Shown: one piece after another, positions 25,206 to 28,193 of the stretch
Layout of the letters: the number at the start of each line of letters is the position of its first letter
How positions within the stretch are numbered: position 1 is the first letter of the stretch
Assembly (NCBI GenBank): GCA_902558395.1
Contig: CACEDS010000001.1
Span: 389,152 to 453,151 of the forward strand
DNA from: an uncultured SAR86 cluster bacterium
Lineage (GTDB): Bacteria > Pseudomonadota > Gammaproteobacteria > Magnimaribacterales > D2472
DNA length: 64,000 nucleotides
Direction of reading: 5' to 3'
Notes under the pieces: model-generated
What the model was told of the DNA's origin: nothing
Databases searched by the model: none
What the model saw: only the letters and a program-made list of their open reading frames with translations
Position numbers and translations under genes: made by a program

Positions 25206-28193
25206 ATGCAGCTTAAACATATAAAACTCGCAGGTTTTAAAAGTTTCGTAGATCCAACGAAGATATCTTTTCCTTCAAATTTAGTAGGCGTAGTTGGCCC
25301 TAATGGCTGTGGTAAATCAAACGTAATTGATGCCGTAAGATGGGTTTTAGGAGAGCTCTCTGCTAAAAATCTTCGTGGGGAGTCTATGGTAGACGTCATC
25401 TTCAATGGGTCAGAAAATAGAAAACCATCAGGACAATGCAGTATTGAATTACTTTTTGATAATTCTAGTGGAAAGATTGGTGGTGAATATGCTTCCTATA
25501 ATGAAATTTCCATCAAAAGAGTAATGACAAGAGATGCACAGTCAACTTATTTTATAAATAGTACAAAGTGTAGAAGAAAAGATGTTCAAGATATATTTCT
25601 AGGAACAGGTTTAGGACCAAGTTCTTATGCAATTATTGAACAAGGAATGGTCAGTAGGCTTGTAAGTGCAAAGCCAGAGGAGCTTAGGACTCATATTGAA
25701 GAGGCTGCAGGCGTCTCTAAATATAGGGAAAGAAGAAGAGAAACCGAGAGTCGAATCAAGAAGACAAAAGAGAACCTATCAAGAGTTAAAGATATAAAGG
25801 ATGAAATAGAAAGGCTTATTAGAAGGCTTGAAAATCAAGCTAATGCTGCAGAGAAATATAACAAGTTAAAAGAAGAGGAGAATCAGAAACAAACTGATAT
25901 AGCTATTCTTTATTCACTTGAAGCTAAAAACAATAAAGACAAACTCCAAAAGAACTTAGAAGGCTTAAATAGAGATCTCAAAATAAAACAGGCTGAATCA
26001 GATTCAAAACAAGCACAAATCGATGATTATAGAACCCAGAATGAGTCTGTAATTAATGCTTATGAGGATGCTCAGAAAAATTTTTATACAATAGGTGCTG
26101 AAATAGCCAAGCATGAATCAGATCTTCATAATATCAACAAATCTGAAGCTACTAATTTAGAAGCCCTTGAGAGAGCTCAAAAAAGTTACAAAGATGCTCT
26201 TCAAAAAGAGTCTGCATTTAAGGACTTAAGTCCAAAAGAAAAAGAATTAAAGCTAAATATTGCTATTGTTAAAGCTTTTGATGCTCTTGAGAAAAAAAAT
26301 ACTATCGGTGTGTCAATTAAACCGCTCGAAGACCAAATAAACATCAAACAAAATGAATTAGATTCGAAGCAGGATATTTTTGATGGTATTAAAGCTAATA
26401 AAGACAAAATCGTAAGTGAGATAAAAGACATTCAGAAAAATCAATTTTCTATTGATGCTGAGATTGCACGAATCGAAGGCTCAATAAAAAATCTTAATAA
26501 TTTAGCAGAAAATGCAAAATCAGATTTTGAAGATGCTTCACGTAATTATGCAAACGCTGTTGACAAAGAGTCAAATAATGAACATCTAAGCCCTAAAGAA
26601 AAAGCAATACACTTACTAGATTCAATCACAGACTTACTTAAATCATTTGGATCAAGTGCAGATAAAGTGAACTCAAAATTATCTGAGCTTAAAGAACTCC
26701 TAATGAGCATATTAAAAATTGCTTCTGATCAATCAAAAAGTTTTACTGCAGAATATTTAAATCAAAAAAATAGAGCAGAAGAGGCTATTAACAAAGCCAA
26801 GGAAGATAAAAAAATTGCTGAAACTAAGCTCGAAGACCTTAACAGTCAAAGAATCTCAATTGGCAATCAACTGGAATCACACATTAGTATTCAGACTAAT
26901 ATAGATAACCAATTGCAAGAAATGGATAGCAATAAATCTGTTGTATCAAATGAACTTAGGAACCTTGAGAAAGAAATTAATGATTTAAGGCTTGAGCTAA
27001 GAACTCACGAAATTAATTTAGAAAATGCTTCAATGGTTTTAGAGAAAGCAGAGGTAAGTATTTCAGACCTTGATTCAGCACAATACAAGGGAATGGATTT
27101 AAAAGGGCTTGAGGTCTCTTTAGATGAAATACAAAAAAATATTGCTCAATTAGGTTCAGTCAATTTAGCTGCTCCCGAAGAGTACTTAAGCAGAGAAAAC
27201 GAATTAAAAAAATTAATTGAAGAAGCTGAAATAAGAAAGTCTGAAATTCAAGTAATTATGGATGGCTTGGTAGAAAAGAGCTCTAAAGCAGAATCTGAAT
27301 TAACAGCCATAAGGCAAAAACAATCTCAGTTTAATGAAAGCTTAAGAGACCTTGAAAATCAAAAAAATGTAGCTGAACTAGATCTTAAATCAATTACAGA
27401 GAAAGTTACTAATCTGAGGTTGGATTTAAAAACCCATGAAATTAATCTAGATAACGCAAACACTAAAATTAAAGAGGCTGGTTTAAATATTGAAAATATA
27501 GATTATTCAAAATATGAAGATATGGAGCTCAATGTCCTCCAAGATTCACTTGCAGACATTCAGGCAAAAATCATACGTCTAGGAGCTATCAACCTGGCAG
27601 CTCCAGAAGAAATAGCTGCAGAATCAAAAAGAAAAGAAGAGCTTGATGTTCAATACAACGATCTTACTGAAGCTCTTGAAAAACTTACAGGCGCCATAAA
27701 AACAATTGATCTTGAAACTAAAACAAGATTTCAAGATAGCTTTGATTCAATAAACAAAAGAATGAAAGAGGTATTTTCAAAGTTATTTGGTGGTGGTTTT
27801 GCTGAACTCGCTCTTACCGAAAATGATGCTTTAAATGCGGGTGTAGTAATAATGGCTAGACCTCCTGGCAAGAAAAATTCATCAATTTCTCAACTGTCAG
27901 GAGGTGAAAAAGCTTTAACTGCTTTAGCTCTTGTTTTTGCAATTTTTGAGCTCAATCCTGCTCCGTTTTGTATTTTAGATGAAGTAGATGCTCCACTAGA
28001 TGATTTAAATACTATGCGTTTTATAAATATGGTTGAGGAGATGTCAAAGACAGTTCAATTCATATTTATAACTCATAATAAAGTTTCTATGGAAAAAAGT
28101 GATCATTTAATGGGAGTAACAATGCAAGAAGCTGGTGTTTCTAGAATGGTCTCTGTTGATGTTAACCAAGCTCTAGAATTTGCTGAAGTATGA
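25206..28193 (+). CDS. smc: SMC-family chromosome partition ATPase, atypical (no recognisable hinge)
   Basis: 995 aa. N-head FKSF...[20 protein letters not shown] and EQG; C-head [16 protein letters not shown] and [13 protein letters not shown]. About 680 aa of coiled coil lie between the heads. Confidence 0.85.
   Translation: [995 protein letters not shown]
26067..26645 (+). repeat. Diverged tandem duplication inside the smc N-proximal coiled coil (aa 288-365 vs 408-480)
   Basis: [23 protein letters not shown]...[16 protein letters not shown] aligns with [23 protein letters not shown]...[16 protein letters not shown], offset 120 aa. Confidence 0.7.
26952..27611 (+). repeat. Diverged tandem duplication inside the smc C-proximal coiled coil (aa 583-660 vs 725-802)
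   Basis: [17 protein letters not shown]...[15 protein letters not shown] aligns with [17 protein letters not shown]...[14 protein letters not shown], offset 142 aa. The duplication is also visible at DNA level, at roughly 60 percent identity by eye. Confidence 0.8.

What the first reader, a model, noticed from the sequence alone, without database searches (positions are those of the whole stretch)
25206..28193. SMC with intact ATPase heads but no recognisable hinge domain, and duplicated coiled-coil modules
The head motifs are canonical: Walker A [9 protein letters not shown], signature LSGGEKAL, Walker B FCILDEVD. The roughly 680 residues between the heads read as continuous charged, heptad-like coiled coil. 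I cannot find any segment resembling the ~150-170-aa glycine-rich globular SMC hinge, such as a G...A.E.ALG...VV or GR.TF.PL-type stretch. At 995 aa the protein is about 170-190 aa shorter than typical bacterial SMC. Each arm also carries a diverged tandem duplication: aa 288-365 vs 408-480, and aa 583-660 vs 725-802. The second duplication copies the head-proximal LG(S/A)(V/I)NLAAPEE motif, which normally occurs once. Hinge dimerisation is central to SMC ring formation. A hinge-less but otherwise conserved SMC, still in its native smc-zipA operon, would therefore need another dimerisation mode, such as a Rad50- or RecN-like coiled-coil apex, or it may be a decaying gene.
Basis: partly seen in the sequence, partly recalled or inferred. 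Interest (0 to 1): 0.65.

Follow-up and report, generated by a model that had tools for sequence, protein, structure and literature searches.

The report
Hinge-less SAR86 SMC with duplicated arms
The chromosome-organising SMC protein of this abundant marine bacterium (SAR86) has lost the dimerisation "hinge" thought essential to all SMC proteins. Its rod-like arms were later re-lengthened by matched internal duplications, and the gene is still under strong selection, so it is a natural test of what the hinge and arm length are for.

Summary
ORF 25206-28193 encodes a 995-aa SMC with intact ATPase motifs and no hinge. PF06470 is absent even at E<=10, and a profile-profile comparison with real hinges gives 1.5% probability. 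It carries two real internal duplications (E 2e-11 and 7e-24).

It is neither an artefact nor a decaying gene. The same architecture recurs in over 100 independent assemblies and single-cell genomes of the SAR86 cluster, at the native ccm-smc-zipA-ligase locus. dN/dS is 0.04 overall and below 0.1 in every segment.

Other SAR86 lineages carry an even shorter hinge-less SMC of 727-736 aa. There the arm is a plain helical hairpin of about 165 residues, closed by a tight turn before an invariant LSPKEK helix cap. The 995-aa form equals that mini-SMC plus 120 aa on the N strand and 143 aa on the C strand. Each addition contributes about 114 helical residues, so the hairpin still closes.

The insert arose once, but long and short alleles are interleaved on the SAR86 tree. 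Mosaic similarity hints at lateral spread.

How the protein dimerises is unresolved, and so is whether ScpAB exists in these genomes. One 2025 paper reports oceanic hinge-less SMCs, attributed to Actinobacteria.

The parts
25206..28193 (+). smc gene, 995 aa, hinge-less long-arm form
   Evidence: ORF. TIGR02168 scores 861 bits against a cutoff of 567. PF02463 is present and PF06470 absent.
25206..25715 (+). N-terminal half of the ATPase head (aa 1-170; Walker A at 31-39, Q-loop Q146)
   Evidence: Largely invariant across homologues. dN/dS 0.013.
25716..26018 (+). Head-proximal N-strand of the arm, n1 (aa 171-271)
   Evidence: Lies within AF2 helices 171-278 and 280-334. Strong 3.5-residue periodicity. 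dN/dS 0.014.
26019..26378 (+). Duplication A, copy 1 (aa 272-391). It includes the ex-apex turn (aa 335-342) and a first LSPKEK motif (341-346).
   Evidence: blastp E 2e-11 against copy 2. DNA repeats spaced 360 nt apart. AF2 places a loop at 335-342. dN/dS 0.035.
26379..26738 (+). Duplication A, copy 2 (aa 392-511). It includes the predicted present apex turn (aa 457-462) and the invariant L461-x-PKEKA-xx-L-x-D motif.
   Evidence: The turn lies at the equivalent position (aa 340-342) in the AF2 model of the 727-aa form.
26745..27176 (+). Duplication B, copy 1 (aa 514-657). It ends in a duplicated joint-like module (aa 615-656) with [11 protein letters not shown].
   Evidence: blastp E 7e-24 against copy 2. 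DNA repeat spaced 429 nt apart. AF2 shows a broken region at 615-656. dN/dS 0.088.
27177..27611 (+). Duplication B, copy 2 (aa 658-802). This is the head-proximal C-strand with the true joint (aa 758-799, [11 protein letters not shown]).
   Evidence: Corresponds to the single B unit of the short forms. dN/dS 0.026.
27612..28193 (+). C-terminal half of the ATPase head (aa 803-995; signature LSGGEKAL, Walker B, H-loop H957)
   Evidence: Largely invariant across homologues. dN/dS 0.003.
28190..28831 (+). zipA (213 aa); its start overlaps the smc stop codon
   Evidence: PF04354 E 6e-12. Same gene order in all related loci.
19061..25172 (+). Upstream ccmABC(D)EFGH cluster plus a 259-aa ORF; this is the conserved left flank of the smc locus in SAR86
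   Evidence: Synteny.

Best explanation
This is the functional, orthologous SMC ATPase of a SAR86-cluster gammaproteobacterium.

An ancestor of the lineage lost the hinge and about half of each arm. That left a 727-736-aa 'mini-SMC' whose arm is a single antiparallel helical hairpin of about 165 residues per strand. The hairpin closes with a 3-6-residue turn followed by an invariant S-P-K-E-K helix N-cap. There is no globular apex.

The form in this window then gained 120 aa on the ascending strand and 143 aa on the descending strand. The ascending addition copies the distal N-strand, the turn and the start of the C-strand. The descending addition copies the rest of the C-strand, including the joint motif. 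Each addition contributes about 114 helical residues. The result still closes as one long hairpin of about 285 residues (about 42 nm, inferred), with a mid-arm discontinuity where the ex-apex copy faces the duplicated joint-like module.

Shown: the anatomy, the absence of a hinge, the single origin of the insert, and purifying selection.

Inferred: the single-hairpin topology, from AF2 helix boundaries and length closure. Also inferred is that dimerisation relies on ATP-engaged heads and/or a kleisin bridge, arm-arm alignment, or tip contacts, rather than on a hinge.
For: Orthology. TIGR02168 scores 861 bits against a cutoff of 567. The ccm-smc-zipA-ligase-SLT_4 locus is shared with all SAR86 forms, and smc-zipA-ligA order is shared with Porticoccus.

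No hinge..

Lineage-wide. Twelve SAR86 genomes carry proteins of 727-996 aa, and there are hundreds of metagenomic clusters.

Arithmetic. 995-732 = 263 = 120+143.

AF2 models. In the short form, helix 171-339, turn 340-342, helices 343-489, joint 490-531. In the long form, helices 171-334, loop 335-342, helix 343-456, loop 457-462, helix 463-614, broken 615-656, helix 657-757, joint 758-799.

Closure. The C strand exceeds the N strand by 20-25 aa with one joint module (short form) and by 51 aa with two (long form). A zigzag of four helices does not close.

Helix starts and periodicity. Each long helix begins at a Pro: P343, P463, P657, P800. Heptad periodicity reaches z = 7 in the arms and dips at the ex-apex, apex, pseudo-joint and joint.

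Selection. dN/dS is 0.003-0.091 in all segments.

Single origin of the insert. Bootstrap support for monophyly of the units is B1 195/200, A1 190/200, A2 186/200.

Fold. Foldseek top hits are full-length SMC chains.
Against: The AF2 models are of moderate quality (pLDDT 69-70, pTM 0.32-0.35, shallow alignments). Coordinates could not be inspected, so strand pairing is inferred and not seen.

No dimer prediction was possible.

The presence of ScpA/ScpB, or of a second SMC-like complex, in these genomes was not established. None was found among the ORFs scanned in the 64-kb window or in 8.5 kb upstream.

The direction of change is not settled. Long and short alleles are interleaved on the tree.
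Confidence: 0.72

Rival explanations
1. Decaying gene: smc is being lost in a streamlined genome, and the hinge deletion and repeats are debris.
For: The genome is streamlined and low in GC. The protein is shorter than canonical SMC.
Against: dN/dS is 0.040 overall, 0.003-0.013 in the heads and 0.026-0.091 in all four repeat copies, at dS of about 1. The exact length is conserved across lineages down to about 58% identity. All catalytic motifs are invariant.
Confidence: 0.02
2. Assembly artefact: collapse of the hinge region or expansion of the repeats.
For: The internal repeats could in principle mislead assemblers.
Against: The repeat copies are only about 73% identical over their best 55 nt, too diverged to confuse an assembler. 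The same 995-aa protein was recovered from ENA, JGI, NCBI, Logan and Tara assemblies and from single-cell genome AG-325-C22.
Confidence: 0.01
3. Not the housekeeping SMC but an SMC-like paralogue (RecN-, Rad50/SbcC-, Mks/JetC- or defence-type). The real condensin would be encoded elsewhere.
For: The hinge-less architecture resembles Rad50 and RecN. PADLOC shows head similarity to mad3, LmuB and JetC models. Whole genomes could not be searched.
Against: It sits in the ancestral smc slot, upstream of zipA and the ligase, as in canonical gammaproteobacteria. It passes the SMC equivalog cutoff, whereas Rad50 (46-63 bits against cutoffs of 700-1087) and RecN (33 against 408) fail. There is no CxxC and no nuclease or defence neighbours. 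None of the 12 SAR86 loci among the 80 retained in the genome scan encodes a canonical-length SMC.
Confidence: 0.06
4. Same gene, different fold: both LSPKEK turns remain hairpin turns. The long form would then be a compact four-helix or branched rod about as long as the short form, and not an extended 42-nm hairpin.
For: The ex-apex copy keeps the ancestral F..LSPKEK signature and is strongly conserved (dN/dS 0.035). Heptad periodicity is weak at aa 309-392.
Against: With AF2's helix boundaries a zigzag does not return the chain to the head. The heights run 164 up, 114 down, 152 up, about 121 down. The extended hairpin closes within about 3%. AF2 predicts 343-456 and 463-614 as continuous helices.
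Confidence: 0.12
5. Evolutionary sub-rival: the long form is ancestral to the SAR86 core clade, and the 727/732-aa forms arose at least three times by precise loss of one copy of each repeat. The alternative is that the short form is ancestral and a long-arm cassette spread laterally.
For: The insert has one origin, yet long forms occur in subclades X and Z and short forms in X, Y and Z. Unequal crossing-over between young repeats would restore exactly 732 aa.
Against: The outgroup 736-aa family is short and unduplicated at the same locus. In the flanks clade X is 1.4-1.9 times more distant from Z than L002 is, but inside aa 272-657 the three are roughly equidistant (1.0-1.3). All B1 units are closer to clade-X B units (identity mostly 0.36-0.54) than to clade-Z B2 units (0.29-0.44). 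These patterns fit mosaic genes.
Confidence: 0.3

Closest known systems
Canonical bacterial Smc (Smc-ScpAB; TIGR02168, e.g. Bacillus subtilis or Pseudomonas Smc)
   Same: Orthologous heads with all ATPase motifs. The LGxxNLxAxEE joint motif. Antiparallel coiled-coil arm. The smc-zipA-ligase locus of gammaproteobacteria.
   Different: No hinge domain (PF06470) at all. The arm apex is a bare helical turn. The arm is about 165 residues in the short forms, or about 285 residues built by duplication in this form. Kleisin partners were not verified.
Engineered Mini-Smc and Smc(zinc-hook) chimeras of B. subtilis (Burmann et al. 2017, PMC5344682)
   Same: That work shows that arms can be shortened and the hinge replaced while keeping function. 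It also shows that arm length is constrained in steps of about 100 residues. Here nature added about 114 helical residues per strand.
   Different: The engineered proteins keep a dimerisation module (hinge or Rad50 hook). The SAR86 proteins have none that can be recognised.
'Hinge-less' oceanic SMC cluster (Environ Microbiome 2025, PMC12153180)
   Same: Abundant marine SMC homologues with SMC heads, a coiled coil, no hinge and no CxxC.
   Different: That cluster was assigned to Actinobacteria (class Actinomycetes). The main text gives no locus context, arm anatomy, duplications or selection analysis. The present family is SAR86 Gammaproteobacteria.
Rad50 / SbcC
   Same: ABC-type head plus a hinge-less antiparallel coiled coil.
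   Different: Rad50 dimerises through a CxxC zinc hook and pairs with an Mre11/SbcD nuclease. Here there is no Cys in the arms and no nuclease neighbour. The Rad50 models score 46-63 bits against cutoffs of 700-1087.
RecN
   Same: A bacterial SMC-family protein with a short coiled coil and no hinge. By my own knowledge, not tested here, it dimerises through the coiled-coil tips.
   Different: TIGR00634 scores 33 bits against a cutoff of 408. The locus and head subfamily differ.
MukB / MksB / JetC
   Same: Bacterial condensin-like ATPases. Some have an elbow in the arm.
   Different: They retain a small hinge and belong to other families. Only weak coiled-coil-level PADLOC matches to JetC were found (E 5e-8), and no MukB Pfam hit.

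Membership tests
Bacterial SMC (TIGR02168 SMC_prok_B / Pfam SMC_N + SMC_hinge) | Whole-protein score above the curated equivalog cutoff | tested here: met
   861 bits against a cutoff of 567.35
Bacterial SMC | Split ABC-type head with Walker A, Q-loop, signature LSGG, Walker B, D-loop and H-loop | tested here: met
   PF02463 E 1e-55 spanning aa 3-979. The motifs are invariant.
Bacterial SMC | Central globular hinge dimerisation domain (PF06470) | tested here: not met
   No hit at E<=10, while the controls are positive. hhalign probability 1.5%. AF2 shows only helices and short turns between the heads.
Bacterial SMC | Long intramolecular antiparallel coiled-coil arm with a joint near the head | tested here: inconclusive
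   Helices and heptad periodicity are shown, and the joint motif is present. Antiparallel pairing is inferred from length closure and was not observed directly.
Bacterial SMC | Kleisin and kite partners ScpA (PF02616) and ScpB (PF04079) in the genome | not testable with these tools
   None among the window ORFs scanned or in the called genes 8.5 kb upstream. Whole SAR86 genomes could not be searched.
Bacterial SMC | Position in the conserved smc-zipA-ligase locus of Gammaproteobacteria | tested here: met
Rad50/SbcC | CxxC zinc hook at the coiled-coil apex; family model score; Mre11/SbcD neighbour | tested here: not met
   The only Cys residues are at 35, 78, 122 and 922. Rad50 models score 46-63 bits against cutoffs of 700-1087. 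No nuclease neighbour.
RecN | TIGR00634 equivalog score | tested here: not met
   32.6 bits against a cutoff of 407.85
Defence SMC-like ATPases (JetC, LmuB, mad3) | Full-length match to the model plus cognate system neighbours | tested here: not met
   Only head-level or coiled-coil-level matches: mad3 at 195 bits (best stretch aa 3-203), LmuB at 73 bits, JetC at E 5e-8. The neighbours are housekeeping genes.
Oceanic 'hinge-less SMC' cluster of PMC12153180 | SMC heads and coiled coil, no hinge, no CxxC, abundant in ocean metagenomes | tested here: met
   set against the description
Oceanic 'hinge-less SMC' cluster of PMC12153180 | Phylogenetic and taxonomic placement in Actinobacteria (class Actinomycetes) | tested here: not met
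   The genome records are SAR86 cluster or Gammaproteobacteria. The nearest canonical relatives are Cellvibrionales, Pseudomonadales and similar orders.

The most novel reading that the evidence does not exclude
A whole, globally abundant bacterial order runs its chromosome-organising SMC without any hinge. The two SMC subunits would be held together only at the heads or kleisin, or by bare coiled-coil tips. Arm length is an evolvable trait under selection: a 263-aa 'long-arm cassette', made by compensating duplications that add about one coiled-coil superhelical period to each strand, has been exchanged between SAR86 lineages by recombination. The cassette may also create a new mid-arm elbow.
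Probability: 0.35. Interest if true: 0.85.

Novelty: new variant of a known kind. Interest (0 to 1): 0.72.

Why it matters
The hinge is treated as a defining and essential SMC element, needed for constitutive dimerisation, DNA binding and possibly as a DNA gate. Arm length is known from engineering work to be tightly tuned.

Here a free-living, very abundant marine lineage keeps a strongly selected smc with no hinge. Within that lineage there are two or more discrete arm lengths (about 165 and about 285 residues per strand), produced by matched duplications.

This gives natural, sequence-defined constructs for three questions:
- Is a hinge dispensable in vivo?
- How does a hinge-less SMC dimerise and load?
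- Does arm length have to change in superhelical steps?

It also shows how a long antiparallel coiled coil can grow: both strands must be extended together.

Tried and rejected
1. Looked for ScpA/ScpB or Muk/Mks in the window with five Pfam batches and in 8.5 kb beyond the left end. None was found. The right-end anchor protein is not on record. Whole genomes could not be searched, so the kleisin question stays open.

2. Foldseek of the AF2 model against the PDB confirmed an SMC-like fold but says nothing about strand pairing.

3. A zigzag or four-helix fold of the long form was rejected because it fails length closure with the AF2 helix boundaries.

4. Tried to infer the direction of change (gain or loss of the insert) from which repeat copy the short forms resemble. 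This is uninformative, because asymmetric divergence after duplication predicts the same pattern.

5. Tried to obtain the sequences of the published 'hinge-less SMC' cluster from the paper's supplements. They are not held.

6. Literature searches for SAR86 with SMC, condensin or ScpAB found nothing specific.

7. A remnant hinge was rejected by Pfam at E<=10, by hhalign and by a PDB profile search.

8. Defence-system membership was rejected on context and on the partial nature of the matches.
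Full report
**1. The observation**

The window has an ORF at 25206-28193 (+) encoding 995 aa. They are invariant in alignments of 18-20 homologues that are 58-92% identical to it.

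Pfam finds SMC_N spanning aa 3-979 but no SMC_hinge (PF06470), even at E<=10. NCBIfam still recognises the protein as the SMC equivalog TIGR02168, at 861 bits against a cutoff of 567. The Rad50 and RecN models fall far below their cutoffs.

The same Pfam scan detects PF06470 in a canonical relative (Porticoccus, E 2e-10) and in a 990-aa relative (E 1e-5). The negative result is therefore meaningful. A profile of the SAR86 apex region compared with a profile of gammaproteobacterial hinges gives hhalign probability 1.5%, aligning only coiled coil to coiled coil. A PDB profile search returns only generic coiled coils.

Both duplications are real:
- aa 272-350 vs 392-470: 34% identity, E 2e-11, offset 120 aa.
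- aa 563-659 vs 706-802: 39% identity, E 7e-24, offset 143 aa.
- DNA repeat families lie at matching spacings of 360 and 429 nt.

**2. It is neither an artefact nor a dying gene**

More than 120 protein clusters of exactly 995 aa (79-99% identical) come from ENA, JGI, NCBI and Logan assemblies. None carries PF06470.

A scan of one genome per species returned SAR86-cluster genomes, including single-cell genomes, as the closest loci. A 92%-identical orthologue lies in the same gene order.

Against that orthologue, dN/dS is 0.040 overall at dS of about 1:

| Segment | dN/dS |
|---|---|
| N-terminal head | 0.013 |
| C-terminal head | 0.003 |
| Proximal N arm | 0.014 |
| Duplication A, copy 1 | 0.035 |
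| Duplication A, copy 2 | 0.091 |
| Duplication B, copy 1 | 0.088 |
| Duplication B, copy 2 | 0.026 |

The repeat copies are only about 73% identical at the DNA level over their best 55 nt. Assembly collapse or expansion is therefore implausible.

**3. Context: a family of hinge-less SMCs**

The related loci fall into three architectures:
- Canonical gammaproteobacterial SMC, 1155-1169 aa, with a hinge.
- SAR86 short forms, 727-732 aa.
- SAR86 long forms, 995-996 aa, which include this window.

The difference 995-732 = 263 = 120+143 is exactly the two duplication units.

An exhaustive HMMER search of 1.84 billion representatives adds further hinge-less length classes of 736, 810, 827, 906 and 941 aa. 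None has PF06470 at E<=1, and the 736-, 906- and 941-aa classes have many members. It also finds a 990-aa form that keeps a hinge.

The 736-aa family is large, and the best 120 hits to it are all 711-736 aa. It sits in the same ccmABCDEFGH-smc-zipA-ligA-SLT_4-PreP locus, as do the long forms of another subclade. Porticoccus has smc-zipA followed by a 677-aa ORF of NAD-ligase size. The SAR86 protein is therefore the positional orthologue of smc.

**4. Anatomy**

AF2 on the 727-aa form (pLDDT 69) gives the following:
- helix 171-339;
- a three-residue turn at 340-342;
- helices 343-355 and 361-489;
- a broken 'joint' region at 490-531;
- helix 532-593 leading into the head.

This is a bare hairpin with no globular apex. 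The turn precedes an invariant L-S-P-K-E-K-A..L.D motif. An S-P-x-E pattern is typical of a helix N-cap.

AF2 on the window protein (pLDDT 70) gives the following:
- helices 171-278 and 280-334;
- loop 335-342;
- helix 343-456;
- loop 457-462;
- helix 463-614;
- broken region 615-656;
- helix 657-757;
- joint 758-799;
- helix 800-861.

Each long helix starts at a proline: P343, P463, P657, P800. The arms contain no cysteine, so a zinc hook is excluded. Hydrophobic 3.5-residue periodicity is strong along the arms (z up to 7). It dips at the ex-apex (309-392), the apex (421-490), the duplicated joint-like module (589-658) and the true joint (743-826).

Unit A (272-391 / 392-511) copies the distal N strand, the turn and the first ~50 residues of the C strand. 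Unit B (514-657 / 658-802) copies the rest of the C strand from '(A/E)EYL' to 'LAAPEE'.

**5. Why a single long hairpin is the best reading (inference)**

In the short form the C strand exceeds the N strand by 20-25 residues. That excess is absorbed by the one joint module. In the long form the excess is 51 residues (338 against 286, roughly) with two joint-like modules, which is about 25 per module.

Counting helical rise:
- The N side is 164+114 = 278 residues, plus an 8-residue loop.
- The C side is 152+101 helical residues plus two modules of about 20 each, about 293.

The two sides agree within about 3%. A zigzag in which both LSPKEK turns remain hairpins (164 up, 114 down, 152 up, about 121 down) does not bring the chain back to the head.

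So the unequal duplications (120 aa and 143 aa) each add about 114 helical residues. They lengthen both strands together, from about 165 to about 285 residues (roughly 24 to 42 nm). The ex-apex copy and the duplicated joint motif end up at overlapping heights, which forms a mid-arm discontinuity. I could not inspect model coordinates, so this topology is inferred and not observed.

Foldseek confirms an overall SMC fold, with condensin and Smc5/6 chains at E 1e-22 to 1e-12.

**6. Evolution**

In NJ trees of heads plus shared arm segments, the SAR86 core clade splits into three subclades (bootstrap 98-100):
- X: L009_732, P0145/P0150_995 and P0149_1024.
- Y: the 727-aa forms.
- Z: L002_996, a 732-aa clade and the 995-aa clade that contains the window.

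Long and short alleles are therefore interleaved.

An independent rare genomic change supports the Z topology. An ATP-dependent ligase replaces NAD-dependent LigA after zipA only in the Z 732-aa and 995-aa clades.

All long forms share identical unit boundaries. In unit trees the B1, A1 and A2 copies are each monophyletic (195, 190 and 186 of 200 bootstraps). The insert therefore arose once. The outgroup 736-aa family is unduplicated, so the short form is probably ancestral.

The patchy distribution then requires either at least three precise reversions or lateral spread of the insert. Three observations favour mosaicism:
- In the flanks, clade X is 1.4-1.9 times more distant from Z than L002 is. 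Within aa 272-657 the three are about equidistant, at 1.0-1.3.
- A sliding-window plot shows L002 clearly Z-like at aa 121-300 and 661-995. Inside aa 271-690 it is equidistant or X-like.
- Every B1 unit is closer to clade-X B units than to clade-Z B2 units.

Saturation could contribute to these patterns, so this point remains unresolved.

**7. Mechanism**

Shown: a strongly constrained SMC ATPase head, a joint, a coiled-coil arm, no hinge and no hook.

Inferred: the protein still acts as the chromosomal SMC, on the basis of its locus and of selection. Its two subunits must be joined by ATP-dependent head engagement and/or a kleisin bridge, by arm-arm alignment, or by contacts of the conserved tip (K..F..LSPKEKA..L.D).

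Engineering work shows that B. subtilis Smc tolerates replacement of the hinge by a Rad50 zinc hook. It also tolerates arm shortening, but only at periodic lengths of about 99 residues, the superhelical period (PMC5344682). The SAR86 increment of about 114 helical residues per strand is close to one such period. That would keep the angular relation of tip to head. This is a hypothesis.

ScpA/ScpB were not found in the 64-kb window or in 8.5 kb upstream. That says little about a genome I assume, without having checked, to be well over 1 Mb.

**8. Comparison with what is known, and novelty**

The protein passes the SMC equivalog model and the locus test. It fails the hinge criterion. It is not Rad50/SbcC, RecN, MukB/JetC or a defence ATPase.

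The only report of natural hinge-less SMCs that I found is a 2025 metagenomic survey. It describes an abundant oceanic cluster attributed to Actinobacteria and, as far as its text shows, gives no anatomy, locus or selection analysis. No paper links SAR86 to this.

I therefore rate it a new variant of a known kind: an SMC orthologue without a hinge, with arm length reset by compensating duplications. I score interest at 0.72, because a specialist would find a strongly selected, lineage-wide hinge-less SMC surprising. The short and long alleles also make the roles of hinge and arm length directly testable.

Noticed in passing
window 28828-30111 (+); compare L002, L009, L010, L012, L082-L084: A 427-aa ATP-dependent DNA ligase (PF01068 + PF14743) occupies the slot after zipA. 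SAR86 loci L082-L084 have an NAD-dependent LigA there by Pfam. L002, L009, L010 and L012 have a LigA-like ORF there, and Porticoccus has a 677-aa ORF of LigA size. The replacement is confined to one SAR86 subclade (window, L001, L003, L006, L007, L011, L081). This looks like an in-situ non-orthologous displacement.
   Followed up: partly
L083 8001-11075 (protein P0149, 1024 aa): A long-form SMC with an extra 29-aa tandem repeat inside the N-terminal ATPase head (...[39 protein letters not shown]...). It is seen on one contig only, so it may be an assembly error or a damaged allele.
   Followed up: partly
proteins P0242 (736 aa; locus L084), P0173 (810), P0193 (827), P0305 (906), P0306 (941), P0187 (990): Further length classes of SMC among marine metagenomic relatives (several named Gammaproteobacteria). 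All lack PF06470 except the 990-aa form, which keeps a hinge with short arms. The 736-aa family is very abundant and syntenic with the SAR86 smc locus. The taxonomy and arm anatomy of the 810-941-aa classes were not examined.
   Followed up: partly
L002 6001-8991 compared with window 25206-28193 and L082: Mosaic similarity. The L002 SMC is clade-Z-like in the heads and proximal arms. Across aa ~271-690 it is equidistant or clade-X-like, which suggests recombination within smc between SAR86 lineages.
   Followed up: partly
window 28190-28831 (+): ZipA is only 213 aa, against 314 aa in Porticoccus L049. The C-terminal FtsZ-binding domain is retained (aa 77-195), so the rest of the protein has been shortened. 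This is another sign of streamlining at this locus.
   Followed up: no
window 24393-25172 (+), 47682-48365 (-), 18545-19057 (+), 57523-57957 (+), 16635-17033 (-): ORFs of 132-259 aa with no significant Pfam family. The first lies immediately downstream of ccmH, at the end of the ccm cluster.
   Followed up: no
window 9459-15090 (+): Two adjacent TonB-dependent receptors (906 aa and 922 aa).
   Followed up: no
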